NCBI GenBank assembly: GCA_043756005.1
Contig: JAYUTB010000008.1
Coordinates: 2,316-66,315, forward strand
DNA: 64,000 bases
Reading direction: 5' to 3'
Origin: Spiroplasmataceae bacterium
GTDB lineage: Bacteria > Bacillota_I > Bacilli_A > Mycoplasmatales > JAYUTB01
Shown here: one piece after another, positions 18,058-63,991 of the stretch
Numbering within the stretch: the first letter of the stretch is position 1
Layout: each line of letters begins with the position of its first letter
Program-made: the position numbers and the translations under genes
The notes under the pieces: model-generated
Told to the model about the DNA's origin: nothing
Database searches by the model: none
The model's input: the letters and a program-made list of their open reading frames with translations, nothing else

Positions 18058-19131
18058 ATGATTTATAATAAAAAAACATTCTTATTAAGAAAATCTGCAT
18101 TATTGTTTGTTTTAATGCCGGTAGTAGCGATTATTACTACAGCTATTGATGAAAAAATAGATGGAACATTGATTAAAGATATAAAAGAAGAAGAAATGAA
18201 GAAATGAACAAATGCAAAAATTAAAGCATTTACGTCTGAACAGATTCGATGATTAACACCGGAACAAGTTGGATGATTGAAGAAAAAACAATTTTCAAAT
18301 TTAATAGCAAAAAAAACATTTACTGATAATGAAGTTAAAGATTTATCGCCATTTGAAATATTTATTTTATCTAAAACACAAATTGGATGATTTAAGGAAG
18401 CACAAATTGGATGATTTACGAAAGAACAAGTTGGATGATTAACAAAAAAACACTTTTCAACGTTTAATAAAAAAGAATTTAAAACTTTGTCGCCTTTTGA
18501 AATATCTATTTTATCTGAAGAACAAATTGGAGGATTTACAAAAGAACAAATTAGAGAATTGACTAAAGAACAAATTGGATGATTAACACCGGAACAAGTT
18601 AAATGATTGAAGAACAAACAATTTTCAAATTTAATAGAAAAAAAACCATTTACTAATAATGAAGTTAAAGATTTATCGCCATTTGAAATATTTATTTTAT
18701 CTAAAACACAAATTGAATGGTTTAAGGAAAAACAAATTGAATGGTTTAAAAAAGATCAAATTGGATGATTAACGTCTGAACAGATTTGATGATTAACGCC
18801 GGAACAAGTTGGATGATTGAAGAAAAAACAATTTCCAAATTTAATTGAAAACACGTCATTTAATATTAAAAATTTATCACTGTTTGAAATATTTATTTTA
18901 TCTGAAGAACAAATTGGAGGATTTACTGATGTACAAGTTAAATGATTAACATCTGAACAATTAAAAATGTTTAATTTTAAATTAAATCATAACAGTAAAT
19001 GAGATCAAACAACATGAATTGTTATGTATACATTATTATCATTATCTGCAGCGACTATTGCTGGAATTATAATCTTAATGAAATGAGAAAAAATCAAAGC
19101 AAGTTGTACAAAAAGCAAACTAAGTGATTAA
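18058..19131 (+). CDS. repeat-rich membrane-anchored surface protein (xEQ[IV]xW[LF]T octad repeats)
   Basis: AAGGAAAAA lies upstream of ATG 18058. The product has an N-terminal TM/signal helix, about 20 short repeats arranged in 3 larger super-repeats, and a C-terminal TM helix. The frame is open only with TGA=Trp (at least 15 in-frame TGA). Confidence 0.8.
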
Positions 19132-19214
19132 AAATAATTAATTCTTTATTAATTAAATAAAGTTTTAAAAAAAATTGTTAATATAAAAAATTACAAATTG
19201 ATAAAATACATTAT

Positions 19215-19924
19215 ATGTAATGATTATTGCTATTGATTATTCCCGTAATTAGTATTTTAATAACATATATTAAAAATAAAAAACCAACAGCTAATATAAA
19301 AATTGAGACTTTAACTGAGAAAGTAATAGGACAATTACAAAAACAACAAATTGAATGATTGAGAACATATCAAATTAAATGATTACAAGAAAAGCAAGTT
19401 AAAGGATTTAGTAAAGAACAAATGGGATAATTTACGAAAGATCAAGTTGGTGAATTTACCGAAAAACAAATTAAAGGATTAACCTATGAACAAATAATAG
19501 AATTTACTAAAGCTGGTTTTTTATTATTAAAAGAAAAATTTACCGATTTCATTAATAAAACAACATTTACTAATGATGAAGTTAAAAAATGATCACCGTT
19601 TGAAATTACTATTTTATCTGAAGCACAAATTGGATGATTAACCCGAGGCCAAATTCAATTATTAACCCCAGCACAAATTAAGATATTAACTAACAACCAA
19701 ATTAAACAAATGCAAACAAAATTTACCGATTTAATTAATAAAACATCATTTACTGATGCTGAAATTAGAAAATGATCACCATTGAAATTACTATGTTAAC
19801 ATCAACGCAAATTAAAGGATTAACTAACAACCAAATGAGATGATTTACTGAAGAATAAAGTAAAGCATTAACACTACCACAAATTAAGGCATTTACTAAA
19901 ATTACTTGCATGTATGATTTATAG
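19215..19924 (+). pseudogene. decayed paralogue of the 18058-19131 repeat protein
   Basis: Same repeat types (QIKWL, SPFEITILSEAQIGWLT). The start reads ATG-TAA. There are in-frame TAA codons at 19428-19430 and 19856-19858 and a 1-nt deletion near 19781 (CCATTGAAATT versus CCGTTTGAAATT). Confidence 0.7.
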
Positions 19925-21710: not shown

Positions 21711-23249
21711 TTATAAAAGTGCCTCAAACAATAGCAATAACTTTACCATAACTTTATGTGGTAATTTTAAAGTAAAATGCTTTGCTTGCACAATATAAGC
21801 TAATGAAAAATTTTGCATAAAAATATTTGCTAGCGTTTGATTAACCATTAAACCAAATGTCATCATCGACGTTTGATGATCATGAAAAAAACTTCGATAA
21901 TCCATGTTGGAAGTGGTTACTAACGAAAAATCATCATCAAATAAAATAGTTTTAGCATGATTAAAGACATGACTTGATTCATATATTTTAACACCAGCTA
22001 ATAATAAATCATCATAATAAGTGCGTGACAAGTCTAATAAAAGTATTTTATCAGTTACGTTAGGCATTAAAATTCGAACATCTACACCTGATATAGCAGC
22101 ATTTTTTAAAGCAATAACAATATCATTTGGTACAATTAAATAAGGGGTAGAAATTCAAATTCTTTGTTGCGTAGTATTAATAAATTTTAATAATAAATCT
22201 TTATAAATAATTTCAGTAATGTGGGGGCCGGTACCGATCACTTGATTAAAATTAATTGTTGTTAAATCTAAATTAGCTGATAATAGATTATTTTTTAATA
22301 ATATTGGTAAAGGTAAATGTTGTTTAGTTAATTCATATCAATCTTTTAAAAATATTAAGGCTAATGAGGTGACGGCACCACCTGTAATGCGTACTTGCAT
22401 ATCTTGTCAACAACCATATTTAGCCGATAAATTAATATAATTATCACCAATATTATACCCACCAGTATATCCAATAACGCCATCAATAATCACATCTTTA
22501 CGATGACACCGATAATTAGTTTTGTAACTAAAAAATGGTCAAGTAACATAATTGTAAAAACAAATTTCAATACCAATATTTTTCATGTTGCGTAAATTTT
22601 TATTAAACAAACCAAATCATGAACCAAAATGATCAAGGATTAAATAAATTTTAACGCCTTCACGATATTTTCTAATTAATAACGCTTCAAATGCTTTAAA
22701 ATAATAACCGTCATGAATAATAAAATAATTTAAATAAATAAATTTTTGAGCATTTGCAATGTCTTCAAACAATGCAAAAAACTTATCAATCCCATTATCA
22801 ATTAATTTAAATGTTAAATTTTGATAAAAAGGAAATTTTGTATAATTAGTCACAAAATTAATTAATAAGCTTTGCCTAGTTGATAAATCATGATTGTTAA
22901 GTAATCATTGCGTATCAGTTCATTGTTCATGATCAAATCACAATTTTTCTGCTAATAACACTTGGTCATATGTTTTACGACCTTGATATTTTTTATTAAA
23001 AATAATAAATCAAAACAGGCCAAGCATTGAAAAAACATTAATGATTAAAAATCAAGTTATTTTAAAACATGAATCACGTTTTAAATAAAAAATATATCAG
23101 GTACAACCAAAAATTAAGCAATAATTAACTAAAAAATAAATTCATAGATAACGAAGGGGAATAAAATAAAAAATACAAAAATAAAATCCACACGTTAATG
23201 CTAAAAATAAAAAAATGGTAAAAAATACAAAAAATAATTTTTGTTTAAT
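21711..23249 (-). CDS. cls: cardiolipin synthase (phospholipase D family)
   Basis: Two HKD motifs (HRKDVIIDG... and HAKTILFDDDFSLVTTSNMDYRS) and N-terminal TM helices. The pieces are joined by TGA. No in-frame ATG precedes the TM helices; the likely start is ATT (comp. 23247-23249), 8 nt after GAGGAAG. Confidence 0.85.
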
Positions 23250-23297
23250 AGTTTAATCTTCCTCTTGATAAGCTTTTTAAAAAAATATCAATTAATA

Positions 23298-23390
23298 TGG
23301 TGGAGTAAGGGGGATTTGAACCCACGCGTCATTTGCACAACCTACCTCATTAGCAGCGAGGCCTCTTCAACCGAACTTGAGTATTACTCC
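23298..23390 (-). tRNA. tRNA-Ser (anticodon GCU)
   Basis: The reverse strand GGAGTAATACTCAAG...CCTCG-CTGCTAA-TGAGG...GGGTTCAAATCCCCCTTACTCCACCA gives a cloverleaf with a long variable arm, anticodon loop CU-GCU-AA and an encoded CCA. Confidence 0.92.
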
Positions 23391-23665
23391 AATCATTACT
23401 AACGCACTAAAAAATTATAAAACAATCTTAGTTTGTTAAAATAATTATATATACATTATAAAAATAATAACAAACGACATGCACATAGAACACAATATTC
23501 AATTGTAATGTTTTAAAAACGAGTAATTCAAATTAAAAACATAAAAGAAAATTATTAAGATTTGTCTCTTTAACAAATGTTTCACTAAAGTGGGTATATT
23601 CACATGTTAGTGAATTCAAACGATATTGTTCAATTGTTTTTTATTTATCAAAAAATCATAAAAAT

Positions 23666-23697
23666 TTGACTTTATATATATATCATTTAAGTAAGGT
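23666..23697 (+). promoter_or_regulatory. promoter-like TTGACT + (TA)5 tract + SD upstream of the 23698 gene
   Basis: TTGACT at 23666-23671, (TA)5 at 23673-23682, then TAAGG before ATG 23698. This is a short version of the cassette seen at 35876, 47434 and 27493. Confidence 0.5.
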
Positions 23698-25343
23698 ATG
23701 TTTATGAACAAATTACTTAAATTATTCCCGATTGCAATAATTGCGCCTATGTTGGCGTTGACTTTTACTTCAGCAGTTGTTACACCTAAAGCTGAGGGTC
23801 ATTTTAAATATATTAACAACTCCATTACATTTAATGGTAAAACTTATTCAACCGATAATTTCAACTCACACAATCAAAGAATTTTAAAAATCAGTAGTGT
23901 GGAAATTATTATTGATAAACCGACAAAAGATTTTGTTTTTTACACAATTAATGGTGTTGATTATTTATATGTTGAAAAACAAAACACACTAATTAATTTA
24001 TCAACCAGTACAAAAGATTCTTACGTAATATATGGTGGAAAACTAAAAGTTTTTAATATCTTGGGGGGGTAGATTATATATTATATTGATATGGATCGCA
24101 CTGAATTTTTTCAACCATCGATCACCTAAAATATTGATACCCTACTGATGAAGTAAATTCTGTTGAAATTCTTGATGGCACTCACATTCAATTGAAATTG
24201 AATAATTCAAAATATGTTTGTTTAAATTTAAACTTACACAATAAAGTTATATCAAGTGATAATTCATTTTGAAAAGTATTTATTGATAATGAAACTGTAT
24301 TTTTAGGATATATATTTTATAATGCTGATTTAAATGAGCATCCAATTTTTAAAACTCCAATATATATGTCTGTATGAGAATACTCAAATATATACATTAA
24401 AAAAGACTTATCTGGGGGCTTGTTTGATTTCACAACAAGACTTACTTCAAAATCTATACAAAAATGCTCGTCTTATAAACCAATAACAATTGACGGCATT
24501 AAATTATTCATGGTAACTGTTGATAATAAACAAGAATTTTATGATGTTGATTTAAATAAAAAAGATGAATACAGTATTAAAATTCTTCACAATAACAATT
24601 ACATTGAACGAACTGTTGCTGATGTTAAAACGTTATTCAAGTTTGATGATGGCGCAAAAATTACATCAATCCTAGATTACAAAAAACTTGAAGAACGAAC
24701 CGTTGATACCGTTAAATTATTAATGGTAACTGATGCAAGTGATGGTGTAAAATTTTATAAGGATAGCGATCAAGCTTTAAATGGTAACTACACAACAATC
24801 AAACCGCAAGACACAAAGTACATTAAACGAACCGTTGATGGTGTGAAAACTTTATTCAAACTTGATGGCACATCAATTACAGATTACAAAGAACTTGAAC
24901 CACGAACGATTGATACCGTTAAATTATTGATGATAACTGATGCAAGTGACAATGTAGCATTTTATAACGATAACGATCAAGTTTTAAATAAAAACTACAA
25001 GTCAAGCACTCTGCATAACACAACTTACATTGAACAAACCGTTGGTGATGTTAAAACGTTATTCAAATTTGATGATGGCGCAAAAATTACAACAATCTCA
25101 AATTACGAAAGCATTAAACCAATAAAAAGCTTATTTAAAAAGAAATACTTAGAAGTAACTAACATTGAAAAAACAGTTGATTGATATAGTAGTATTAGTG
25201 AAGGCAAAAAAGATGATTTTAAAAAAACCTCTGGTATTATAAAATATCAGACTCCAATTGTAATTGGAGCTTCGGTTGGTTCAGTAAGTGTTGGTGCTTT
25301 AATTACTGCATTAATTTTAATTATTAAAAAACGTAAAAAATAA
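23698..25343 (+). CDS. variable surface protein, split by a frameshift at a G7 tract (apparent OFF state)
   Basis: The signal-peptide ORF 23698-24072 stops just after G7. The frame starting at 24069 is open (TGA=Trp) to TAA 25341-25343 and ends in a TM helix plus KKRKK. One extra G fuses the two parts (about 548 aa). Confidence 0.75.
24063..24069 (+). repeat. poly-G (G7) homopolymer at the frameshift point
   Basis: The sequence CTTGGGGGGGTAG can be read directly. Confidence 0.95.
24601..25110 (+). repeat. coding tandem repeats of about 205-220 nt (YIExTVxDVKTLFKxDG...TVDTVKLLM[VI]TDASD)
   Basis: About 2.4 units are visible in both protein and DNA (24601, 24823 and 25027 all begin TACATT[GA]AAC[GA]AAC). 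Confidence 0.85.
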
Positions 25344-25629
25344 ATAATAATCATTTACCAACATTAGCACAACTTGTCAATATTTGAATTTTATTAAAGT
25401 TATCCACGAGCATTATTTGATTTTAAAATTTTATGAATCAATGTTAGTTAATAAAATCTTTATATTACCAGTTAATGGTGTTATAGCGTATGCTAAACGA
25501 GTAAATAATGTTTAAAATTCTTAACAAATATCAATTGATGATTATGTCATATTAATAATAGCTTAAAAAATAATATAAGTTTTTGTTAAAGCTTGGTTAA
25601 TATAAAATGTAATGATAAAAGTTATTTTC

Positions 25630-25661
25630 ATGTTTGCGTGATAAATTTATCACGCAAACAT
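25630..25661. other. 32-nt perfect palindrome (possible terminator or protein-binding site)
   Basis: ATGTTTGCGTGATAAATTTATCACGCAAACAT is self-complementary with no loop. It lies downstream of the 23698-25343 gene. Confidence 0.7.
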
Positions 25662-25780
25662 TACTAGCAATTGATAGATAAGTTGAGTTTATTATGGTTC
25701 AGCCGTTCCTTGATCAATATTTGATGTTGTTATGATAAAAATATCTTCTTTTACATAAGTTGTTTTTACTTTTTATATAT

Positions 25781-26353
25781 AAAAAGGAAATTTTGTATAA
25801 TTAGTCACAAAATTAATTAATAAGCGTTACCTAGTTGATAAATCAGGATTGTTAAGTAATCATTGCGTATCAGTTCATTGTTCATGATCAAATCACAATT
25901 TTTCTGCTAATAACACTTGATCATATGTTTGACGGCCTTTATAGTTTTTATTAAAAATAATAAATCAAGTTATTTTAAAACATGAATCATGTTTTAAATA
26001 AAAAATATATCAGGTACAACCAAAAATTAAACAATAATTAACTAAAAAATAAATTCATAGATAACGAAGGGGAATAAAATAAAAAAATGGTAAAAAATAC
26101 AAAAAATAATTTTTGTTTAATAGTTTAATCTTCCTCTTGATAAGTTTTTTTAAAAAAATATCAACTAATATTGTTGAATAAGGGGATTTGAGCCCATCCG
26201 TCATTTGCACAACCTACCTCATTAGCAGCGAGGCCTCTTCAATCGAACTTAAGTATTACTCAAATCATTACTAACGTACTAAAAAATTATAAATAATCTT
26301 AGTTTGTTAAAATAATTATATATACATTATAAAAATAATAACAAATGACATTC
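25781..26353. repeat. degenerate second copy of 22826-23483 (cls 5' end + tRNA-Ser + flank)
   Basis: The two regions align by eye along their whole length, with scattered substitutions and two deletions of about 40 bp. The copies are direct repeats bracketing 23484-25780. Confidence 0.9.
26171..26262 (-). pseudogene. tRNA-Ser(GCU) relic inside the duplicated segment
   Basis: The anticodon arm is identical to the 23298-23390 copy. The 3' CCA is changed to ACA, the acceptor stem is altered, and the T-loop reads GCTCAAAT instead of GTTCAAAT. Confidence 0.65.
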
Positions 26354-26516
26354 AATAAAGACAACAACAATAACACCAGATAAAGCTAATTTTTTTAAAA
26401 AATTAATTACTAATAATTCTTTGTTATGCATAAAATGAATAACAATTTAATTAATCTTTGAAATTATAAATAATTAATAAAACTCAAATCGCTTTTATAA
26501 CAATTTGTTTGTATAT

Positions 26517-27423
26517 TTTATTTTTGACGTTTTTTAATAATAAAAACTAATGCTGTAATTAAAGCAATAATACCTAGTGAAACAGGTAATCCAATTGTTA
26601 AAAGTTGGTTATTTGTATCAGTTTTTGACGTTTCTTGAGCTTTTGGTATTGGTTGAGTGTCTGAAGTTTTTGGTTTTTCTTGAACTTTTGGTATTACTTT
26701 AGTTTCTGAAATTTTTGGTATTGGTTGAGTTTCTGAAGTTTTTGGTGTTGCTGGAGTGTCTGAAGTTTTTGGTATTGGTTGAGTTTCTTGAGCTTTTGGT
26801 ATTGGTTGAGTGTCTGAAGTTTTTGGGGTTGTGGGTTTGTTTATTGTTACATTTTTAACAATTGTATTTTGAAATTTTAATTCAATTTGATCATTTGGTA
26901 ATTCGTTTATTGAATCAATATCATTTGCAATTTCATAACTGATTGAATGGTCTATTTTTGAAAATAAAATTTTTTGATCTTTAATATATGTTATTCAATC
27001 ACCTTCAGTTAAAGAAAAAACTTTTGGAAGATTTTTAATCTTATCATCTGCTTTTCCGGTTGTTAAATTTATAAAATAATTAGAAGTGACTTTGGAACCA
27101 AAACTATCTATAAATAAATAATCATTTTTATCAATCGTCAAAAAGAACATTTTGGTTTTGTAGTCTTTTACATCATCAGGAATATAATAAAAATCATCTT
27201 TATTTAAAATAATTGCATAATATAGATTACCTCATCCCCCTCATTTTCTTTTCTCTATTTTATATGTTTTGTCATTATATTCAATTTCTTCTATAATTCT
27301 TTTATTGTCACTAAATGTTTCAAAATCAGTGAATGATTTTTGCTTAATATCTGCTGAAAATAAAGTAATAACTAAAACTGGTACAACAATAATTGGTAAT
27401 ATATTTTTCAATAATTTTTTCAT
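26517..27423 (-). CDS. surface protein with Pro/Thr/Lys-rich repeats; C-terminal membrane anchor out of frame
   Basis: ATG at 27423, signal peptide MKKLLKNILPIIVVPVLVITLFSA. The frame checked codon by codon ends at TAA 26533-26535. The anchor SLGIIALITALVFIIKKRQK* (to 26517) lies in the adjacent frame after the A4/T4 run at 26579-26582. Confidence 0.7.
26590..26830 (-). repeat. imperfect 27-30-nt coding repeats (PIPK[TA][SQ][DE]TQ)
   Basis: GGTATTGGTTGAGT[GT]TCTGAAGTTTTTGG-type units are repeated about 7 times. Confidence 0.8.
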
Positions 27424-27493
<70 letters not shown>

Positions 27494-27584
27494 ATTTGAT
27501 TGATTTAGTTTGATATTTTAGAGGTTGTTATGTTATTTTTAAAATCAAAAAACTAACTAATGTTTAATATGTTAAAATTTATGC

Positions 27585-28778
27585 ATGAGTTATAAAAAAT
27601 TATTTACTAGCGAATCAGTTTCAGAAGGTCATCCTGATAAAATATGTGATCAAATTTCGGACGCAGTATTGGATGCTTGTTTAACACAAGATTCACATAG
27701 TCGAGTATCATGTAATTTGTTTATTACCGCCGATCAAATTTTGATCGGCGGTGAAATAACTACCAATGCCAAAATTAATTTTAATGAAATTATTCAAACA
27801 GTTTTTGATGACATTGGTTATAAGATTACTTTAAATAAAACTCCATCAATCAAAAACGAACGACATAATTTTCAAACCAACATTAGTGTTCATCAACAAT
27901 CGCCAGAAATTCATAAAATGGTTAATAACCTTGATCATCATATGAAATATGGCGATCAAGGGATTGTATTTGGTTATGCAGTTAATGAAACTGATAATTA
28001 CTTACCTATAGCATATACATTAGCCAATGAACTTTTAAAAAGAGCTACTTATTTAAGAAAAAACGATCAATTTCATAAAGCTTTACCTGATATGAAATCA
28101 CAAGTAACAGTTCGATATACTGATAATCCATCTTGTCCGATTCAAGTTGAAAAAGTAGTATTAAGCATTAATCATTATCAACACGATTCTAATGAAACGC
28201 GTGATCAATTTCGTCATTTTATTAATACGGAAATTATTGATCATGTATTGCGTCAATTTAATTTAAACATTGATTGTGAAAAGTATATTAATAATAATGG
28301 TGATTTTGTATTAGGAGGGCCATGAGCTGATAGTGGATTAAGTAATAAAAAAATTGTAGTCGATACTTATGGAGGAGGCGGTAGATGTGGAGGGGGGGGT
28401 TTATCAGGTAAAGATCCAACAAAGCCAGATCGCAGTGGTAATTATTTAGCTAGATATATTGCTAAAAATATTGTCGCTACAGGATTAATTAATAAACTTG
28501 AAATTCAATTAAGTTTTTTAATTGGATCTGAAAGTCCAATTGCAGTAGCAGCTGATACTTTTCATCATGCTAAAGTTACGGAAGCAATGATTTTACAAAT
28601 CATTGCGCAGCATTTTGATTTAACTTTGCAAGGTTTTATTAATGATTTAAAACTTTTAAGACCCATTTATCGACAAACAAGTGTGGGGGGTCATTTTAGT
28701 AACGCTACTTTTCCTTGAGAAGCAACTGATAAAACAAGCGCCATTAAAAAAACACTGTTAACATTAATCGGTTCATAA
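27585..28778 (+). CDS. metK: S-adenosylmethionine synthase
   Basis: FTSESVSEGHPDKICDQISDAVLD at the N-terminus, and GGG...SGKDPTKPDRSG further in. The frame continues past TGA 28323 to TAA 28776-28778. It contains an in-frame G8 run at 28392-28399. Confidence 0.95.
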
Positions 28779-29366: not shown

Positions 29367-29669
29367 TTAAAAATTATTTTTTCATTGCGTTAGCACATTA
29401 ATAAATAATATTACAAACGTTTCCGTTAAAAAGGCAATCATGATGCCTAAACAAAATCATTTTAATGATTTGATTGTTTCTTGTCTTTCTAAGCCTTGCG
29501 TGGCATATATTTTAATACCAATAATAATGCCACGAATTACCGCAAATAAACTAGTAATCACTAATAAAGCAGAAATAATACCATTACAAATGTTTTTAAT
29601 AGTGATTAATAATTCATTATTCGCTAATGTCATATTCATCATGGTCGTCATCATCAGTTCATGCATCAC
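29367..29669 (-). CDS. small two-TM protein, last gene of the T4SS-like cluster (possibly pilin/VirB2-like)
   Basis: Track ORF 29457-29669 extends through TGA to TAA 29367. About 100 aa with two hydrophobic helices. It overlaps the 3' end of the upstream gene. Confidence 0.5.
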
Positions 29670-32001
29670 TTTCTAATTGATCAGCATTAATAATCAATGC
29701 TCTTTTATTTCTGTTACGGATATAAAAACAAATGATAATTAAACCCACAAAAAATATCATCGATCCGGCTACTACGCCAAACAAGATCATCAGATTAGTT
29801 CAGGTGATTTGTTCATCAAGTTGAGCTTGATATTTGTTATAAGCATTAATGATTATTTCCTCATATTTTTTTTGTAAATTTAAATAATTGTCACGGGCTG
29901 CTTTAGATATTGGTCGGGTTCAATTATGGAGTTTTAAGATAATTGCTTCTTTAGTTTGCCAATCTTTAAAGTGGGCGTTTTTAAAACCATCATCGATTTG
30001 TGCTGTTAAAAAAAGCTTGGCTTTAATAATCGTTTTTTCTAAGATGCCTTTGGTTCAATGATTTCAAAAATTACTGAAAGTAATAAAAGAAGATATGGTT
30101 GTGTCGTTGATATCTATTACATCACGCACAATGTTTTGATGTTCATAACCGTTGACATTTAGTAATTGATGTTTTATAAAAGCGGCGGTTAATTGGGGAT
30201 GATAGTTAGTAATATTTGTTAATCAACTGTGCATTTGATGATGATGTTGATTTTTAATAATATTAAGTTGATGAGTTAACATTTGATGATCAAGTTGATT
30301 GATGGTGGCATCATCAATGTTAAAAAACTTGACTCATGTTAATTGACGAGGTGTAATATTGTTGGGTACTTGATCACTACCAAGTTGTAAATAAAAATCT
30401 TGGTGTTGGTGGTTGATTTTAACAACGGTTAATTTTAATAAAGTAGTATTTAAACCTGGTTGATTATATAAATTTTTATTGACAACCTGATCACTGAGTG
30501 GTAATGGTTTTCAAATATCTTTTTCTTTGATCGATAATTGGGTTGATTTTATAAAATGAGGAAATTTATTTTGCAGCTGGATTTGTTGATGGGGGGTGTA
30601 ATAAATTTTGACCGTTTGCTGATCAATGGTTCTTCATACATAATCTTTAATTAAATTATTTTTGGCTCAAAAAAAATTTTGAGCTAAGGCTTTATTAAAT
30701 AATGTAAAATTGATAATTTTAGTATTACCATATTGATCGTTAACAACGATTTTATAATCATTAGGTTGCGTAAAGGTAAACATGATTTGATTATTTTTTA
30801 AGGTAATTTGATATGGTAGTTTGGGTGATGAATTTTTAATCACAATTTTGTTAGCAATTGTGATAGCTGGTTCACCATTAATGATGATGTTTTTAAGAGT
30901 ATTATCAAGTAAAATATGTCAATTAATTTGATCGTCAAAGTAATATGCAGTTTTTTTAACATTTTGTTGATCAGTAAAATAAGTAATTAACTGATCGGTA
31001 GTGTTGTGATAATGATATAAATATTGATAAATATTATTGTGTAAGGTAATTTTTGTTTTATCAAAGCTGTTAATATAAAATGGTTTTTGAAGAGGCGGAA
31101 TTAATTGATTATTGATGGTTACAAAGAAATAATAATGTTTATCAACGTGTTGACTGTTGATTTGATCAACTAACATGGTCGTTTGAAATTGATTTTGTTT
31201 GGTGAAAGTGAGTTTTTGTTTTTTTCATGGTGATTTATTACCAGCACGAAAATTTAATTCAAAAAATAAATGTTTGAGAACTTGATTAGTAAAATGTTTG
31301 CTATGATGAGTTAGTTTAAAGGTTAGTTTAAATGGTTTATTTTTGAAAATTGGTTGAGGTTGCTGGTTAAGACTAGTAACATTTGTTTGATGAACATTAT
31401 CATCAACAGCAGTAATATTTAGTTGCAGATCATTGAAATCGACCAATAAAGCATAATCTTTTTTTAACAACGATGTGTTATCGCTCGGATATCAAGTGAC
31501 TTCTTTGCCATCTTCTGATAAAGGTTGATCTTTAGGATATCGATATCAATACCACACACCACCACTGGGTAGTCATAAATTAACTCGTAAATTACTTAAA
31601 TACATATTTTTTTTATCAAATCTGATGTCGGGGGCGTGAAAATTAGCTCAGGATACTTTTTGAGCAGGCTTGTCTAAATCAGTAATTGATTTACGATATC
31701 AAGCTTTACAATGTTGTGTTCTTTCGCCACGCAATCATCCATAAGCGACATGACATTTATTAATGGATCAATCAACTCAATCATCTTTACGAAAATAAAG
31801 ATAATTATCATTAATACGCACTTCTTGTCAATGAGCTGAATCTTTAAGCAGTTGTTTTTTCTTAAAAGCACCACTCACTAAATACCAAGCGTTATTTTCT
31901 CAGATGACAGCAACATCAGTATGAATTAATAATGATTGGTTTTTTATAGGTGGGGAGAGATGTTGCGATGATAAAAAAAAATTATTATTAATAATCACCA
32001 A
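29617..32001 (-). CDS. large Trp-rich protein with C-terminal TM anchor and acidic tail (about 794 aa)
   Basis: A single frame traced codon by codon from TTG/GVG near 31996-32001 to TAA 29617, with many TGA. It includes track ORFs 30919-31176 and 31225-31470. C-terminus: MILFGVVAGSMIFFVGLIIICFYIRNRNKR...DDDDHDEYDISE. No family recognised. Confidence 0.6.
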
Positions 32002-32029
32002 AGTTGTTTAATAAATTTAATAGTACGAA

Positions 32030-33091
32030 TTATTTTTTAAACACCCCTCTTTTTAATTTTTTAATGATGCTACTCATTTGTTGTGTTTCGTAACTTAAAT
32101 TTCCTTTTATTTTGAAAACTTGATCATAAACATGTTGCGCTCTTACTAAAAAAATGCCGGAGGCAATCAATAATAATAATTTTAAAATGACATTTGCAAA
32201 AAAATCATCTTTGTTAAAAATCATGAAATGATTGATGGTATATAATTTACTAATGACTGATATAAAAATAAATAAATTCAGATTTAAACCAAAAATTAAT
32301 AAGGTTTTTGACACAAGGGTGGTTTGTCAATTTTTAAAATGCTTACCACCATCATAAGCAATTCACGCAATTGCCAGTGGTCCTAATAAAAACAACAGTA
32401 ATATTTCAAACATTCTTTGAATTAAACAAAGACACATTGATGTTAATGTTCAAATAATAACACCTGCTCCAATCATCACTATGATGTTGTGAAATTGATG
32501 TTTTTGATCATAACTTCATTGGTAGTTTAAAGTAATATTAGTGATCTCAGCTTCGGTCATTAATTGATGAGGTGTAAAACCGGATTGATAAATTTTATCA
32601 GCAATAATATTAGTATCTAAACTGTTATGATGTTGAAAAATAGCCCCCATTAACAAAAAAATATAATTATTAATGGTGATAAACAACATTGGAAAGGTAA
32701 TGATAAAAATAATAGCCACAAAAACATGTTTAATAATATTGTTTATTTTTCATGATTCTTGATTAGTAAATAAAAGATTAATTACTTTTAATATTGCCGC
32801 TAACATAATGACACCACCTGCTAGGATGGAAATAATCATATAAAAGAGATTGTGCTCGTTCATGTTTAATTCATGTAACATTCATTTAAAAAATTGTTCG
32901 CCTAATAAATAGTTAAAAACTATACCAATTTTTTGCACGATTTTTAATAGAAACATGGTAATTTGAAAAATCAAATTATAAAACCATGTATTTCATCATG
33001 CTGCATTTGGTCCAATATTTAATGAAGTACATATGATCAGCAACACGATTATCAAAAACATTTTTAAACAATAACGACCGCGTCGTGACAT
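32030..33091 (-). CDS. polytopic membrane protein (VirB6/TrbL-like position)
   Basis: ATG at 33091. Track ORFs 32030-32314 and 32516-32719 share a frame joined by TGA. At least 6 hydrophobic helices. It lies directly downstream of the VirB4-like gene. Confidence 0.6.
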
Positions 33092-33101
33092 ATTATTAAA
33101 T

Positions 33102-35597: not shown

Positions 35598-35875
35598 ATA
35601 ACAACCACATATTATATATCTCTTAAAATGCAAACTTTTCCTTAAATATTTTTTTTATTTAAAAAAAATATTTATATAACGCAATGAAAATAATCTATGT
35701 TGGGAGATAATTATAGGTAAACAAAAACTAATTAATGTTTATTTTGATAAAAAACAATGCAAGATGTGTAATAAAAATTATTTATTGTTGGCCTTTTTAA
35801 TATGTTGATAAATAGATTGTTTAACGATGGAATGGTAATTATTGGTGATGTTTTAATCAAAATCAACATAAAAAC

Positions 35876-35935
35876 TTGACTTTATATATATATATATATA
35901 AAATAAAAATAACTTATGTAAAGGAAGTTATTTTT
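35876..35935 (+). promoter_or_regulatory. promoter/leader cassette with (TA)9 and SD-overlapping hairpin
   Basis: TTGACT 35876-35881, (TA)9 35883-35900 (17-nt spacer to TAAAAT), AAATAAAAA, hairpin AATAACTT/AAGTTATT 35908-35932 overlapping AAGGAAG, ATG 35936. Confidence 0.7.
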
Positions 35936-36178
35936 ATGAAAAAATTATTGAAATTTACAAACCTAAATAAAGTAGTTTTATTTAGTTTGGTGACAATTCC
36001 GGTAGCTGCTATTTTAATGACGGCAAATGCTTGTCAAGGACCAACAGGACCAGCAGGATCTAAAGGTGAAACAGGAGCAGTAGGACCTAAAGGTGAAACA
36101 GGAGCAGTAGGATCTAAAGGTGAAACAGGAGCAGTAGGACCTAAAGGTGAAACAGGAGCAGTAGGACCTAAAGCGTAA
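35936..36178 (+). CDS. small collagen-like (Gly-X-Y)n putative lipoprotein
   Basis: [33 protein letters not shown] (signal peptide ending in Cys) is followed by 15 uninterrupted G-X-Y triplets ([18 protein letters not shown]...). SD AAGGAAG lies upstream and a strong terminator follows. Confidence 0.75.
36065..36172 (+). repeat. 27-nt tandem repeat x4 (GETGAVG[PS]K)
   Basis: GGTGAAACAGGAGCAGTAGGA[CT]CTAAA starts at 36065, 36092, 36119 and 36146. Confidence 0.95.
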
Positions 36179-36914: not shown

Positions 36915-38333
36915 TTATTGATGATGTTTTAATCAAAAATCATCATCAAAACTTGCTTCGTAGTCTTTAAAAACACCAGTTTCTTGATTGAAATATAAAT
37001 CAACATTACCGACGGTGCCGTTACGATTTTTTGCTAAAATTAATTCAGTAAAGTTCGGATCGAAATTTTCTTGTTTAGTTTGATCATCTTGATAGTTGTC
37101 GTCGGCTTGGGTATCTTTATGATAATAACCGGGTCGATATAAAAACATAATTAAATCAGCATCTTGTTCAATAGCACCACTATCTCGTAAATCAGACATA
37201 ATTGGTTTTTTATTTTCACGACGCTCTACATATCGCGATAATTGTGATAAACAAATAATCGGAATAGCTAAACTACGTGATAATTGTTTTAATTTACGTG
37301 ACATAAAACTAATTTCACGATTACGATCCATATAATCAGTTTTATCAATACTTAAGAGTTGTAAATAATCAATTACAACTAATGAAATATCATGTTTGGT
37401 GGCTAATTGTTTTAAAAAAATATTAATTTTGCTTAACGTAATCGTTGGATCATCAACAATAATAATTTTGGTTTGTTTTAAATTTTCTGAGGTAATAGTA
37501 ATTTGATTTCATTGTCCGGTGGTTAATTTTTTACCATATTTAACACTTGATATATTAATTTTTGACGTAATTTGGAGAATTTTTTCTAAGATTTGATCAT
37601 AAGAAGTTTCTAAAGAAAAGAACACCACGACATTATCTAAATCTAGTTGCACCGCATTAATGACAAAATTTAATGATAAAGTAGTTTTACCCATACTTGG
37701 GCGAGCAGCTAAAATGATTAAGTTGCCTTTTTGAAAACCAGCCGTTAATCGATCTAATTTAGCAATGCCACTACCTAATCCGATAAATTCATAACTGGAG
37801 GCTTCTCACAATTTTAATTGTTCTTGTAACGTTTCGATTTTATCACTAATAAAATCATAAGATTCAATTTTAGTATCTTCAATGAGTTTTTGAAAATAAT
37901 CATGAACATTAGTTAATACTTCACTAATTGGCATAGTTGAATTGACTTGCGTTTCAATGAATTTGATACCTAGTTTTAATTTTCGTTTAATCGACCGATC
38001 CATTAAAATGTCTACATATTCTTTTAATAACACATCAGAATCAATAAAATTTTCAATTAAATAATTTAAATAATGAAAAACATCAGCACTTTCTTTTCAA
38101 AAAGTTTGTTTGATTAAATAATCTTGTAAAATAGTAACATCAACTGTAGTTGAGTCTTCATATAAGGTTTGTAACGCTTTAAAAATTGATTGGTGCTTTT
38201 CACTGTAAAAATCATGAACCGTAAGTTTAGTAAATACTTGATGACAATTATAAGGATTATAAATTAAAGAACCTAAGACACACGCTTCGGCTTCTTCAAA
38301 ATATAAATTTGCAGGAGGATTATTAATTATCAA
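36915..38333 (-). CDS. dnaB: replicative DNA helicase DnaB
   Basis: Four track ORFs in one frame. Walker A ARPSMGKTT and the RecA-like C-terminal domain are present. The TGA at 36933 is Trp and the true TAA is at 36915. The likely start is TTG at 38333, right after the rplI stop. Confidence 0.92.
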
Positions 38334-46424: not shown

Positions 46425-47382
46425 TTAGTTGTTGTTTTGAGCTGCTTTTAATTTTGCATCGGCTTCATCTAATGTTTGTTGAGCTGTTTTTAATTTTGCA
46501 TCAGCATCGTCTAATTTATTTTTACTTTCTAATCAACTTGATGAGTTGTTGAAATTTAAATTTGCAAAATCAATTGTTTGGTTAAATTTACTTAAAATAG
46601 GTTTGATATATGATGGAGAATATATATTATTCAATACTTGTAAAACATAAATTGATGATCAATTTTGATTTTTGATTGCATTAATTACATTAAATTCATT
46701 TTTTACAAACATAATATTAAAATTATTATCACTCGATTTTGGAATGAATAATGCAAGTAATTCTTTTAGTGCTGTTGTTTTTGTTTTTTCATCGGTTGCG
46801 TTAATTCATTTATCTAATAATGTTTTTTTAGCAGTATCTGTTGCAGGCATTAATGCTGTAAGTAATGTTTTTAGTGCGTTTATTTTTTCTGTTTCATCGG
46901 TTGCGTTAATTCATTTATCTAATAATGCTTTGTGATCTTTTGCTAATGCTTTAAGTAATTGTAGTAAAGAATTTTCGGTTGTTGCGATATTTGATGCTGG
47001 ATTTATAAATAATTGAAAATATGTTCTGCTTTTATCTCCACTTTTTGATAAAATTTTATTTAAATTTGTTGTTAAATTAGATTGTTCGGTTTGTAAATAA
47101 AATTTATAATTAAATATTGATTTAAGTAAATCTAAATCTAAAATTTTAGAATTTAAGAAATTTGAATTTATAATATTAAAATTTTGTTGAGCATGTTGTT
47201 GGTTTGTTTTTGCATGTTGTTGGTTTGTTTTTGCATGTTGTTGGTTTTTTATTGCATCATCTAATTCTTTATCAACACCTCAACAATTTTTTGCTGATGT
47301 TGAAATAACAACTGCCGGTATTGTTATCAAACTAAATAAAACAACTTTATTTAAGTTTGTAAATTTCAATAATTTTTTCATA
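46425..47382 (-). pseudogene. putative surface lipoprotein, frame broken inside the signal peptide at a T5 run
   Basis: ATG 47382 gives [16 protein letters not shown]. After removing one T at comp. 47338-47342 the frame reads LFSLITIPAVVISTSAKNC... and stays open to TAA 46425. It contains NQQHAKT x3 and LLDKWINATDE x2 repeats. Confidence 0.7.
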
Positions 47383-47434
47383 AAAACAACTTCCTTTTCA
47401 TAAGTTGTTTTTATTTTATATATATAAAGTCAAG
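47383..47434 (-). promoter_or_regulatory. promoter/leader cassette with (TA)5 and SD-overlapping hairpin
   Basis: On the reverse strand: TTGACT (47429-47434), T, (TA)5 (47418-47427), AAATAAAAA, hairpin AACAACTT/AAGTTGTT (47386-47410) overlapping AAGGAAG, ATG 47382. Confidence 0.65.
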
Positions 47435-51652: not shown

Positions 51653-51777
51653 TAAAAATTATAGGTGTAACGTTTTAAAAAAGAGTAATTTAAAGTAAAC
51701 ACAATCATTATATTTTCCTTTTATAAAGGTAGTTTTATTAGATTTTTTGTATCTTTTAAATAATAAAAAATCTAATA

Positions 51778-61774: not shown

Positions 61775-62532
61775 AGATGTTTAACCACTAAATTGAATCG
61801 TTGTTGATGGTTTTGTAAAACCAGCTGGTTTGTTTTAATTGTTTCAATGCCATCGACAAAAAAATAAGTATCTTTAACAAAATGATGTTCATCAATTACA
61901 ATCGTTAATATTTGTGATTGATCTAAAATAAAATTTTTATAAGTAATGGGGGTTAATCCATCACACGGAGCAATAATTTTCACATTTAATAAAGGGGTCT
62001 TGGCTAGAATGGTTGCCCCATCAATTGCTTTGATATATCCTGATGAACCAAGGTTAGTTGAAATAACAATGCCTGAAGCTTGATAATTTGCTAATCATTG
62101 ATCATTAATAAATAAATTAAAGGTAATGGTATTTTTTAAGTTAATAATTCTTAATTCGTTAACACTCAATTGTTGCTTAATGATTTTATTATTTTGCATA
62201 AAATTAATTTGCAACAATTGACATTGATCAATGACAATTTTATGATTAATAATTTGCTCGATAATTTGATCAATGTCATCAATTAACCACCTACAAAAAA
62301 AACCAACACTTTTGTCATTAGTTTTAATAGTAATAAATTTACTATTATTTAATAAATGATTGTATTTGTTAATGGCTCATAAAAAATTACCATCACCACC
62401 TAATACAAAAATTCAATTTGGATTTACTTGATCATTAATAAAGTTATAAGTGTGTAATTTATCAATTAATATTGTTTGAATATCAAGGGATTGTGATTTA
62501 TGTTCATTAATAGCAATGGCGTATGTAAACAT
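61771..62532 (-). CDS. nadK: NAD kinase
   Basis: FVLGGDGNFL, NxGxxGY-like STNLGSSGYI and a C-terminal beta domain. Track ORF 61771-61983 plus upstream segments share one frame. ATG at 62532. Confidence 0.85.
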
Positions 62533-62600
62533 TTTTTTATCATAATCCTCAAATTTTTTTAATAAATTTCATTTTTTTTTAGCTATTGTTTTAATTTGTT
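62531..62600. repeat. about 70-bp direct repeat, copy A (copy of the trpS 3' end, now the nadK 5' leader)
   Basis: ATTTTTTTATCATAATCCTCAAATTTTTTTAATAAATTTCATTTTTTTTTAGCTATTGTTTTAATTTGTT matches 62975-63044 with a few mismatches. Confidence 0.9.
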
Positions 62601-62818
62601 ACAGCAATAATTAATATTTTTTTGATTCAGAAGTTAATTGTATTATATTTTTTAATATTTTTTTTCTAAACTAATGTTAAAAAAAATAAATTAAAAAAGT
62701 ATATAAATATCTGAAATTTTATATAAATGATAATTACTGATAATTAAATTGTGATTTAAATTTATTATCTATTATATAAACTATAATAATTATGAATACA
62801 TAAATATATTTACAGTTC

Positions 62819-62974
62819 TGTTAAAATAGGTAGTTGTTATTAACAAGCATAAAAATTAAATCTGGATTCACGTGATTATTAATAAAGTTCGGAGGTTATC
62901 AATGGGTGACTAAAGCAGTTTTAAGAATTGGCTTTTGTTTTTATGCTTGTTAATAACAACTACCTATTTTAACA
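62819..62974. repeat. 156-nt element: 37-bp perfect inverted repeat around an 82-nt loop
   Basis: The left arm 62819-62855 (TGTTAAAATAGGTAGTTGTTATTAACAAGCATAAAAA) is the exact reverse complement of the right arm 62938-62974. Confidence 0.95.
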
Positions 62975-63044
62975 TATTTTTTATCATAATCCTCAAATTT
63001 TTTTAATAAATTTCATTTTTTGTTTAGCGATGGTTTTAATTTGT
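62975..63044. repeat. about 70-bp direct repeat, copy B (authentic trpS 3' end)
   Basis: See copy A. It overlaps the last roughly 21 codons and the stop of trpS. Confidence 0.9.
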
Positions 63045-63991
63045 TTTTCATTAGTAATGATTGTTTTTAATACTTCATTATTAGCTTGATAAAGTTTGGT
63101 TCGATCTTGAATATTTTTGAATGCATCGTTAATAATATCAATTAATGTATTTTTTAAATCGTGATAATTTTTATGTTGAAATATATCTTCGGCATCTTTG
63201 ATTGTTGTTTCTGAAAATAAACAAAAAATTTTAAGCAAATTGCTGACCCCTGGTTTATTAATCGGATCAAAATAAATTTTATTTTCTGTGTCAGTAATGG
63301 CTTTCATAATTTTTTGTTTAATGATGTCAGGTTTGTCAGCTAAGTTAAGTTTGGAAAATTCATTATCATCTGATTTTGACATTTTTTTTAATGGATTTTG
63401 TAAACTCATAATTTTATCACTTAATTGGTTATCAAATGCTTGCAAGCGGGTTGGTAAAGTAAAGACGGTGGTATTAAATTTATGATTGATTTTTTCAGCT
63501 AAGTTTCTTATAAATTCAATGTGTTGGGTTTGATCAATGCCGGTTAAGACAACATCACTATCAAACAATAAAATATCAGCACTCATTAAGATTGGATAAA
63601 TTAATATACCAGTTGGAATAGCAATACTTTGATTGGCATGTTTGATTTTTTTATCTTTATATTGGGTCATATTATTAAGTTGTCCCACCGTGGTGTGACA
63701 ACTTAATAAATAATGCAATTCACTGATTTCGGGGATATGTGATTGGATAAAAATCTTTACTTTTGTACTGTCAATGCCACAAGCTAAATAATAATTAATA
63801 ATGGTTTGGGTTTGGTGTTGTAATATTGATTGATGCACATTATCAGTTGTTAAAGCATGTAAATTAGCAACAAATAATATAATTTCATAATCATTTTGTA
63901 ATTTAATAATTGGTTTAATAACACTAAAATAGTGACCAATATGCATTTCTCCAGTACTAGTAATGGCACTAATTAATTTAAGTTTTTTCAT
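62981..63991 (-). CDS. trpS: tryptophan--tRNA ligase
   Basis: Class I HIGH-type motif (GEMHIGHY) and KMSKS (KKMSKSD). The TGA at 62993 is Trp and the frame ends at TAA 62981-62983. Confidence 0.92.

What the first reader, a model, noticed from the sequence alone, without database searches (positions are those of the whole stretch)
25781..26353. About 600-bp direct duplication of the cls 5' end plus tRNA-Ser brackets a variable-surface-gene insert
Region 22826-23483 (the first about 140 codons of cls, its upstream region, tRNA-Ser(GCU) and about 90 bp beyond) is repeated at 25781-26353. The second copy has scattered substitutions, two deletions of about 40 bp and a damaged tRNA (CCA to ACA, T-loop GCTCAAAT). 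The 2.3 kb between the copies carries the G7-switch surface gene.

A long direct duplication of the target around inserted DNA is what a single-crossover (Campbell-type) integration of a circular molecule carrying homology would leave. It is not what a tRNA-targeting integrase (short att core) or a transposase (short TSD) would leave. The same architecture recurs at 35839/36915 and 62531/62975.
Basis: partly seen in the sequence, partly recalled or inferred. Interest (0 to 1): 0.65.

Follow-up and report, generated by a model that had tools for sequence, protein, structure and literature searches.

The report
Decaying cls/tRNA-Ser duplicate flanking surface gene
A 660-bp piece of chromosome (the start of the cardiolipin synthase gene plus a serine tRNA) has been copied 3 kb downstream in a Spiroplasma-like bacterium; the extra copy is rotting into pseudogenes and marks a transposase-free rearrangement at a switchable surface-gene promoter. 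It is a real and tidy rearrangement scar, not a new kind of element.

Summary
Window 22824-23483 (cls 5' ~141 codons, its upstream region, tRNA-Ser(GCU) and 93 bp beyond) recurs in direct orientation at 25779-26354. The copies differ by 25 substitutions in 575 aligned bases (4.3%) and by 42-bp and 41-bp deletions in copy B.

Copy B is dead. Its cls fragment has a stop codon and a frameshift. Its tRNA scores 24.6 bits in Rfam, against 48.8 for copy A and a threshold of 29.

The 2.3 kb between the copies holds one orphan surface gene (G7 = off, G8 would be in frame). It contains no integrase, transposase, phage or plasmid similarity.

Copy B's cls-side boundary is fused exactly at the -35 position of a truncated (TA)n surface-gene promoter, with up to 8 nt of microhomology. 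The same repeat-insert-repeat layout recurs at the dnaB 3' end (41 nt, again fused at a -35/(TA)n boundary with 8-nt microhomology) and at nadK/trpS (~217 nt). The inserts are not decayed copies of neighbouring DNA, so simple tandem duplication is rejected.

I favour a RecA-independent, microhomology-mediated duplication-insertion. Campbell-type integration gives the same layout but needs a circular donor for which nothing was found. The nearest relatives share only 40-48% cls identity, so no empty site could be examined.

The parts
21711..23250 (-). cls (cardiolipin synthase), the functional copy. The start near 23250 is inferred (non-ATG start after an RBS-like GAGGAAG); the first ATG is at 23027.
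   Evidence: Table-4 ORF. Homologues are 506-512 aa cardiolipin synthases with PLDc domains.
22824..23483 (.). Copy A of the duplicated segment (H_A): cls codons ~1-141, the cls upstream region, tRNA-Ser and 93 bp upstream of the tRNA including its promoter-like TTGTTA-18-TATAAT.
23298..23390 (-). tRNA-Ser(GCU), functional.
   Evidence: ARAGORN; Rfam 48.8 bits. The tRNA sits directly upstream of cls, as a single copy, in three distant Spiroplasma relatives.
23484..25778 (.). Sequence between the copies (I, 2295 bp): spacer, promoter P_X, surface gene X, a hairpin, and a remnant of a second promoter cassette.
   Evidence: No significant similarity to the cls body or to the DNA right of copy B. 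No plasmid or phage match.
23666..23683 (+). P_X: -35 TTGACT followed by a (TA)5 tract.
23698..25343 (+). Surface gene X (548 aa if the G tract is G8): signal peptide, ~70-aa repeats, C-terminal membrane anchor. G7 at 24063-24069 puts it out of frame.
   Evidence: Frame analysis. No Pfam family. Its only database hit is itself.
25632..25659 (.). Perfect hairpin GTTTGCGTGATAAA/TTTATCACGCAAAC downstream of X; terminator-like (inferred).
   Evidence: Read from the sequence.
25725..25781 (-). Remnant of a (TA)n promoter cassette: (TA)4, the -10 region, 5'UTR, RBS, and ATC where the ATG should be. It has no -35.
   Evidence: 85-86% identical to the promoter/5'UTR at 47375-47428 and 35893-35942.
25771..25786 (.). 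Junction J1 (25778|25779): TATATATAAAAAG|GAAATTTTG. Cls-internal sequence is fused where the promoter's -35 should be. The microhomology is ATAAAAAG (8 nt against the P_Y-type promoter, 5-6 nt against the other type).
   Evidence: chance estimate
25779..26354 (.). Copy B (H_B), the decaying duplicate.
25779..26122 (-). cls' pseudogene fragment: Gln-to-stop change, a 42-bp in-frame deletion and a 41-bp frameshifting deletion. Both deletions are flanked by short direct repeats (AAATCAA; AAAATAAAAAA).
26173..26263 (-). Pseudo-tRNA-Ser(GCU): 9 substitutions and 1 deletion, mostly GC-to-AT.
26518..27423 (-). Surface gene Y (301 aa): signal peptide, 9-aa Pro/Thr-rich repeats, C-terminal anchor.
27459..27494 (-). 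P_Y: (TA)13 tract and -35 TTGACT (AGTCAA on the + strand).
27585..28778 (+). metK, the right-hand housekeeping flank.
   Evidence: Table-4 ORF. The identity is assigned from the sequence (my own knowledge), not tested against a family library.
35839..35878 (.). Second site, left copy: a 41-nt copy of the dnaB 3' end including its stop codon, fused to the -35/(TA)9 of promoter P_35.9k. The microhomology is AAAACTTG.
36915..36955 (-). Second site, right copy: the genuine 3' end of dnaB.
62407..62623 (.). Third site, left copy: the functional 5' end of a NAD-kinase-like gene plus a pseudo 3' end of the Trp/Tyr-type tRNA synthetase gene.
62851..63067 (.). Third site, right copy: a pseudo NAD-kinase 5' end plus the functional synthetase 3' end.

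Best explanation
Copy B is a young, non-functional segmental duplicate of the cls-5'/tRNA-Ser segment. It was made by RecA-independent illegitimate recombination (replication template switching, or break repair that copies nearby DNA) seeded at a (TA)n phase-variable promoter.

One end of the copied 660 bp was joined, through up to 8 nt of microhomology, to the (TA)n tract of a surface-gene promoter. That destroyed the promoter's -35 box. The other end was joined upstream of the tRNA promoter. The result is repeat-insert-repeat, with the complete cls and tRNA kept in copy A.

Freed from selection, copy B then accumulated GC-to-AT substitutions, a stop codon and two slippage deletions.

Shown here: the duplication, the decay of copy B, the junction anatomy, the absence of mobility genes, and the recurrence at two other sites. 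Inferred: the enzymology (template switching versus break repair), and whether copy B or the surface-gene block was the piece that moved.
For: 1. Junction J1 reads cls-internal | (TA)4, -10, 5'UTR, RBS. The promoter remnant is 85-86% identical to two intact promoter cassettes in the window. It shares ATAAAAAG with the cls site.

2. At the dnaB site, the copied 41 nt is again fused exactly at the -35/(TA)n boundary, with AAAACTTG shared. An identity run of 8 nt or more at a random junction register has probability about 7e-4 in this window.

3. Repeat length varies between sites (41, ~217, 660 nt). The inserts show no residual homology to adjacent DNA.

4. The insert carries no integrase or transposase. 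Its only long ORF is X. None of the 20 window ORFs put through Pfam matched an integrase or transposase family; the only mobility-related match was the VirB4/TraG-type ATPase at 33102-35633. The insert has no plasmid or phage similarity.

5. Both deletions in copy B lie between short direct repeats of 7 and 11 nt. This shows that slippage-type illegitimate events happen in this genome.

6. The third site contains a 42-nt, 95% inverted copy of part of its own duplicated segment. That is typical of template-switch rearrangements (a comparison from my own knowledge of MMBIR/FoSTeS-type events, PMC2621351).

7. A single tRNA-Ser(GCU) directly upstream of cls is the state in three distant Spiroplasma relatives, so the second copy is derived.
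Against: The parental promoter at J1 is not available. Microhomology is 8 nt only against the P_Y-type promoter and 5-6 nt against the type the remnant most resembles.

The second junction (23483|23484 or 26354|26355) shows no readable microhomology, because neither parent sequence is known.

Three of five (TA)n promoters in the window have no flanking duplication, and the third repeat-insert-repeat site has no (TA)n tract. The link to (TA)n therefore rests on two junctions.

No donor copy and no empty site were found. No close relative exists in the searched collections.
Confidence: 0.5

Rival explanations
1. Campbell-type insertion-duplication. A circular DNA carrying gene X plus a 660-bp cls/tRNA-Ser homology arm integrated by one RecA-dependent crossover. 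For example, a 2955-bp circle could have looped out of a chromosome haplotype in which X lay next to tRNA-Ser and closed at the ATAAAAAG microhomology. It would then integrate into a chromosome whose tRNA-Ser was followed by gene Y.
For: The layout is exactly that of insertion-duplication, and every interrupted gene keeps one intact copy. recA is intact at 384.9 bits. J1 could be the closing junction of the circle. VirB4/TraG-type transfer genes at 33102-35633 show that conjugative DNA has entered this chromosome.
Against: No circle, plasmid or phage relative of the insert was found, and X is an orphan. The model still needs an illegitimate event to make J1, plus two different haplotypes in the population. 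At the dnaB site the homology arm would be only 41 nt, which is poor substrate for RecA (my own knowledge).
Confidence: 0.2
2. An ordinary tandem duplication of a ~3-kb unit (22824-25778), formed by unequal exchange at the ATAAAAAG microhomology, followed by deletion or replacement of the second copy of the surface-gene block. In this model the right-hand end of the repeat is simply a later deletion endpoint.
For: J1 is the single novel junction that a tandem duplication predicts. Deletions between short repeats are documented in copy B.
Against: Nothing to the right of copy B resembles the insert. The promoter remnant at J1 is only about 60-70% like the promoter of Y, which would be its twin, whereas the repeat copies are 95% alike. 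All three sites would each have had to lose exactly one insert copy.
Confidence: 0.2
3. A genomic island or prophage remnant integrated at tRNA-Ser by a site-specific integrase, or an IS/transposon insertion with a target-site duplication.
For: A tRNA gene lies at the border, and the insert has a different gene content from the surrounding housekeeping genes.
Against: The repeat is about 660 bp and extends far beyond the tRNA on both sides. There is no integrase or transposase ORF. No terminal inverted repeats of an element are present. Repeat length varies between sites.
Confidence: 0.03
4. An assembly artefact, or an ancient functional paralogue pair.
For: The two short-read Logan contigs of the same species both break in or next to the repeat region.
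Against: Copy B has private substitutions, a stop codon, two deletions and its own unique flanks. Logan contig L001 ends exactly one base before a site that distinguishes copies A and B, and it carries B-type bases. This indicates that both variants exist in an independent read set. Divergence of 4.3%, together with a stop codon, a frameshift and a sub-threshold tRNA, rules out a conserved paralogue.
Confidence: 0.03

Closest known systems
Insertion-duplication by single-crossover (Campbell) integration, as used for gene disruption with suicide or oriC plasmids in Spiroplasma citri and many other bacteria (my own knowledge)
   Same: Direct repeats of a chromosomal segment flank the inserted DNA. 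Genes cut by the repeat ends survive in one intact and one truncated copy. The repeat length equals the homology length, so it can vary between sites.
   Different: No vector-like or circular donor is detectable. One border is an illegitimate microhomology fusion to a promoter. One of the three repeats is only 41 nt long.
[quoted passage not shown]
   Same: Short, closely linked direct duplications are placed 0.2-2.3 kb from their source. Junctions show microhomology. An associated inverted fragment occurs at one site. No mobility genes are involved.
   Different: Those models were worked out in eukaryotes and E. coli, and nothing is known about them in mollicutes. Here only one junction per site can be read.
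Vmm/Vmc-type phase-variable lipoprotein promoters of the Mycoplasma mycoides cluster, with a (TA)n tract between -35 and -10 (PMC3053259, citing Persson et al. 2002)
   Same: TTGACT, then (TA)n, then TAAAAT, upstream of signal-peptide surface genes. The tract length differs between copies (4, 5, 5, 9 and 13 TA units). Only the (TA)9 copy gives a 17-nt spacer.
   Different: That comparison concerns the neighbouring genes, not the duplication itself. The proteins are unrelated orphans, and some carry a C-terminal membrane anchor instead of a lipobox. Switching has not been observed.
Islands and prophages that carry a long replacement copy of the target gene end (for example phage 21/e14 in icd; my own knowledge)
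   Same: After insertion there is one functional and one pseudo copy of a gene end, over about 100 bp or more.
   Different: Those elements encode an integrase and recombine at a short core site. No integrase is present here.

Membership tests
tRNA-targeting integrase island / prophage | Tyrosine or serine integrase gene inside the insert | tested here: not met
   The only long ORF in 23484-25778 is surface gene X, which has no Pfam family.
tRNA-targeting integrase island / prophage | Short att direct repeat confined to the 3' part of the tRNA | tested here: not met
   The repeat spans the whole tRNA, about 475 bp beyond its 3' end and 93 bp beyond its 5' end.
IS / transposon insertion | Transposase gene, terminal inverted repeats, and a short target duplication of fixed length | tested here: not met
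   There is no transposase. Repeat lengths are 41, ~217 and 660 nt. The only inverted repeats are shared gene ends and promoters.
Campbell-type insertion-duplication | Direct repeats of the target flank the insert, with one intact copy of each interrupted gene | tested here: met
Campbell-type insertion-duplication | Host homologous recombination machinery | tested here: met
   Full-length RecA at 1940-2974, 384.9 bits.
Campbell-type insertion-duplication | A circular donor molecule carrying the insert plus the homology arm | tested here: inconclusive
   No plasmid or phage match and no other copy of X in 5.8 billion protein clusters. The rest of this genome and read-level data could not be examined.
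Simple tandem duplication | Two adjacent units homologous over their whole length, with a single novel junction | tested here: not met
   The inserts show no residual similarity to the flanking DNA at any of the three sites.
Microhomology-mediated illegitimate recombination / template switching | Microhomology of a few nt at the novel junctions | tested here: met
   J1 at cls has ATAAAAAG (5-8 nt, depending on which promoter is used as proxy). J1 at dnaB has AAAACTTG (8 nt). The chance of 8 nt or more is 7e-4. The second junctions are unreadable.
Microhomology-mediated illegitimate recombination / template switching | Independence from RecA and from site-specific enzymes | not testable with these tools
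   This needs genetics or strain comparisons.
Functional tRNA-Ser gene (copy B) | Score above the Rfam tRNA gathering threshold and conserved D-loop and T-loop residues | tested here: not met
   24.6 bits against a threshold of 29. G19 is changed to A, U54 to C, there is a 1-nt deletion in the T stem, and CCA is changed to CAA.
Vmm-type (TA)n phase-variable promoter (neighbouring genes) | A (TA)n tract forming the spacer between -35 and -10 of a surface-protein gene, with tract length variable | tested here: met
   Five instances with 4-13 TA units. Actual switching is not testable here.

The most novel reading that the evidence does not exclude
In this mollicute, (TA)n-promoter surface-gene cassettes are spread or remodelled by a transposase-free, microhomology-primed copying process that starts at the fragile (TA)n tract. 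The process leaves target duplications of arbitrary length (41-660 bp). Contingency loci would then seed their own dispersal next to housekeeping genes, and would occasionally create pseudo-tRNAs and truncated gene copies.
Probability: 0.2. Interest if true: 0.6.

Novelty: new member of a known kind. Interest (0 to 1): 0.36.

Why it matters
The locus is a clean, datable example (about 4% divergence) of how a small, AT-rich, transposon-poor genome rearranges without mobile-element enzymes. A housekeeping segment was duplicated, and the spare cls fragment and tRNA can be seen decaying under AT-biased mutation.

Two independent junctions sit at the -35/(TA)n boundary of phase-variable promoters. 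This hints that the repeats used for phase switching also act as breakpoints that reshape surface-gene loci. If confirmed in more genomes, that would connect contingency-locus hypermutability with structural evolution.

There are also practical points. The 125-aa ORF annotated in copy B and the second tRNA-Ser call are pseudogenes and should be annotated as such. The 576-660-bp direct repeats (about 96% identical where they align) predict RecA-dependent loss of gene X.

Tried and rejected
1. Empty site in relatives. The genome-contig scan with cls found no relative. The best non-self cls homologues are 40-48% identical. Three of them (L002, L004, L005) only show that a single tRNA-Ser directly upstream of cls is the ancestral state; their upstream neighbour is coaE, not metK.

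2. Independent assemblies of the same species. Only two Logan contigs exist (L001, L003), and both stop in or beside the repeat. L001 joins B-type bases (including the stop codon) to the cls body. This could be a chimeric de Bruijn path or gene conversion; it is unresolved. L003 starts with an odd inverted piece of 19-29 nt, which I treat as a probable library or assembly chimera.

3. Simple tandem duplication. Rejected, because the inserts have no residual similarity to the flanks.

4. Tandem-inversion duplication, with X as an inverted twin of Y. X and Y share only the promoter, signal peptide and anchor ends (84-87% over 31-73 nt), while the repeat copies are 95% alike. Rejected for the same time frame.

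5. Flanking duplications at the other (TA)n promoters (47.4k, P_Y, P_X). None found.

6. Footprints of earlier locations. A metK-5'-like stretch at 35723-35784 and a similarity of spacer 23504-23541 to 51666-51703 were not significant against shuffles.

7. Excess substitutions in the pseudo-tRNA (9 in 93 nt, against 16 in 482 nt elsewhere). This is explained by its high G+C content under GC-to-AT bias, not by selection (my reading).

8. Rfam search for a structured RNA in the 62.5-63.0 kb hairpin region. Nothing found.

9. The sigma-70 promoter scan is uninformative in this AT-rich DNA (49 sites found, 43 expected).

Full report
**What the window is.** The sequence is about 27% G+C and reads TGA as tryptophan; long ORFs appear only with translation table 4. 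The cardiolipin synthase encoded at 21711-23250 (minus strand) finds its best named relatives among Spiroplasma species and insect endosymbionts. These share only 40-48% identity. A scan of one genome per species found no relative. The organism is therefore a divergent Spiroplasma-like mollicute without sequenced close relatives. The same protein occurs on an NCBI contig of 66,997 nt and on two short Logan contigs.

**Checking the observation.**
- The repeat finder, MAFFT and a self-BLAST all show a direct repeat: 22824-23483 (copy A) and 25779-26354 (copy B).
- Across the aligned part there are 550 matches and 25 substitutions (4.3%). Copy B lacks 42 bp and 41 bp. In 10 shuffled windows the best direct-repeat score was 41 bits; the blocks here score 229-419 bits.
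- Copy A contains the first ~141 codons of cls, its upstream region, tRNA-Ser(GCU) at 23298-23390, and 93 bp upstream of the tRNA.
- Copy B is a wreck. Its cls reading frame has a Gln-to-stop change, an in-frame 42-bp deletion and a frameshifting 41-bp deletion.
- Its tRNA has nine substitutions and one deletion. These hit G19, U54, the T stem and the CCA end. It scores 24.6 bits in Rfam, against 48.8 for copy A and a threshold of 29.
- Most tRNA changes are GC-to-AT. That, together with the tRNA's high G+C content, explains its higher divergence.
- Both deletions lie between short direct repeats, AAATCAA and AAAATAAAAAA. They are slippage deletions.
- Because copy B carries private mutations and unique flanks, it is not an assembly duplicate.
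- Logan contig L001, from an independent run, ends one base before a site that distinguishes copies A and B, and it carries B-type bases over its first 141 nt. This suggests that both variants are present in that read set. It could also be a chimeric path or a gene-conversion tract.

**What lies between and around the copies.**
- The 2295 bp between the copies hold one gene, X (23698-25343, plus strand). With the present G7 tract (24063-24069) it stops after 124 codons. With G8 it reads through to a 548-aa protein with a signal peptide, ~70-aa repeats and a C-terminal membrane anchor.
- X has no Pfam family and no homologue except itself. Neither X nor the insert DNA matches any plasmid or phage record.
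- X is preceded by TTGACT followed by (TA)5.
- To the right of copy B lies a second anchored surface gene, Y (26518-27423, minus strand). It has TTGACT followed by (TA)13. metK follows.
- None of the 20 window ORFs put through Pfam matched an integrase or transposase family. The only mobility-related match was a VirB4/TraG-type ATPase at 33102-35633. recA is intact.

**The informative junction.**
- Immediately left of copy B (25725-25781, minus strand) sits the remnant of a third promoter cassette. It has (TA)4, a -10 region, 5'UTR and RBS, with ATC where the start codon should be. It is 85-86% identical to the intact cassettes at 47.4 kb and 35.9 kb.
- Its -35 box is missing. In its place cls-internal sequence begins: TATATATAAAAAG|GAAATTTTG.
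- The cls site (GATAAAAAGGAAATTTTG) and a P_Y-type promoter (TATAAAAAGTCAAATTTG) share ATAAAAAG. The overlap is 5-6 nt against the other promoter type.
- This border of the duplication is therefore an illegitimate, microhomology-type fusion. It is neither an att core nor a transposon end.
- The other border (23483/26354) cannot be interpreted, because neither parental sequence is known. The flanks beyond it are unrelated.

**Recurrence.**
- At 35839-35878 a 41-nt copy of the dnaB 3' end, stop codon included, lies about 1 kb from the real dnaB end (36915-36955). The match is 90% and 50.7 bits; 0 of 300 shuffles reach it.
- That copy is again fused exactly at the -35/(TA)9 of a cassette promoter, with AAAACTTG shared between dnaB and the promoter type.
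- An identity run of 8 nt or more at a random junction register occurs with probability about 7e-4 in this window.
- At 62407-62623 and 62851-63067, a ~217-nt segment is duplicated around 227 bp of AT-rich DNA. The segment spans the start of a NAD-kinase-like gene and the end of a Trp/Tyr-type tRNA synthetase gene. In each copy one half is functional and the other is decaying.
- That insert ends in a 42-nt, 95% inverted copy of part of the duplicated segment.
- At none of the three sites does the insert retain similarity to neighbouring genes, so simple tandem duplication is excluded.
- The pattern is not universal. The promoters at 47.4 kb, P_X and P_Y have no flanking duplication.

**Polarity.** In three distant relatives (L002, L004 from an endosymbiont of Clivina fossor, L005 from Spiroplasma platyhelix), a single tRNA-Ser(GCU) lies directly upstream of cls. 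The second copy is therefore derived and lineage-specific. No genome close enough to show an empty site exists in the collections searched.

**Mechanism.**
- All viable models share one step that the sequence shows directly: an illegitimate microhomology joint between cls and a (TA)n promoter.
- I favour a one-step, RecA-independent duplication-insertion. This would be replication template switching, or break repair that copies nearby DNA, as described for MMBIR/FoSTeS (PMC2621351) and for repair-mediated duplications of up to 619 bp (PMC2671141).
- The reasons are:
  - two independent junctions sit at (TA)n tracts with microhomology;
  - repeat lengths are arbitrary;
  - one site has an inverted fragment;
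  - slippage deletions are evident nearby;
  - no mobility gene or extrachromosomal relative is found.
- Whether copy B was pasted in at the promoter, or the X block was pasted in between duplicated target ends, cannot be decided.
It needs an unobserved circle, a second haplotype and, at dnaB, recombination over 41 nt.
- A tandem duplication followed by loss of one insert copy is also possible (0.2). It fits poorly, because the promoter remnant is only ~60-70% like the promoter of Y, which would be its twin.
- Integrase or transposase insertion, an assembly artefact and a functional paralogue pair are each contradicted by the tests above.

**Consequences (inferred).** Copy B keeps the tRNA promoter-like TTGTTA-18-TATAAT. 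It may therefore still drive transcription towards the dead cassette, antisense to X. The 576-660-bp direct repeats (about 96% identical where they align) in a recA-positive cell should occasionally delete X.

**Verdict.** It is a rearrangement scar of a known general kind, not a new element. The link between phase-variable (TA)n promoters and breakpoints is the part worth following up.

Noticed in passing
window 23666-23683, 25774-25781, 27459-27494, 35876-35906, 47417-47434: There are five Vmm-like promoters (TTGACT, (TA)n, TAAAAT) with 5, 4, 13, 9 and 5 TA units. Only the (TA)9 copy at 35.9 kb gives a 17-nt spacer, so only that short collagen-like (GETGAVGPK repeat) lipoprotein gene looks switched on.
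   Followed up: partly
window 23698-25343 (G7 at 24063-24069): Surface gene X is a single 548-aa ORF if the G tract is G8. It therefore carries two independent switches, the promoter (TA)n tract and the coding poly-G tract. It is an orphan with no homologue in 5.8 billion protein clusters.
   Followed up: yes
window 62819-62860 / 62933-62974: A 42-nt, 95% complementary inverted repeat with a 72-nt loop lies just downstream of the Trp/Tyr-type tRNA synthetase gene. The right arm is derived from the pseudo NAD-kinase 5' copy. There is no Rfam match. It could serve as a terminator or be a template-switch product.
   Followed up: partly
window 29617-35633: Three minus-strand genes lie between ybeY and the 35.9-kb cassette: a 794-aa anchored protein, a 366-aa polytopic membrane protein, and an 843-aa VirB4/TraG-P-loop ATPase. 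They look like a remnant of a conjugative element or an integrated plasmid.
   Followed up: partly
L001 positions 1-141 (= window 22964-22824): The Logan contig from SRR22198334 joins copy-B-type bases, including the TAA stop, to the unique cls body. This is either a chimeric graph path or gene conversion from the pseudogene into the working cls in that population.
   Followed up: partly
L003 positions 1-29: The Logan contig from SRR23617201 begins with copy-A sequence 22873-22901 in inverted orientation, joined to cls at about 22800. It may be a fold-back chimera or a rare inversion junction.
   Followed up: no
window 47821-49775 (minus strand): An X-like gene (the same ~70-aa repeat family, about 62% DNA identity) is split into ORFs of 472 and 139 aa plus a detached anchor remnant that is 96% identical to the X anchor (47821-47868). 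It appears to be a decaying paralogue.
   Followed up: no
window 18058-19900: A surface protein with ALTTAQ repeats (Pfam PF20080, 63 bits) is followed by about 800 bp of degenerate copies of the same repeats.
   Followed up: no
window 25277-25349 / 26512-26584 and 23653-23683 / 27476-27506: Genes X and Y form a convergent pair. Their anchor-coding ends (73 nt, 84%) and promoters (31 nt, 87%) are inverted repeats bracketing copy B. Recombination between them could invert the segment.
   Followed up: no
window 25827-26210 (minus strand): The public annotation of the source contig carries a 125-aa protein (P0124). It is just the reading frame through the pseudo-tRNA and the cls' fragment, so it is an annotation artefact.
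   Followed up: yes
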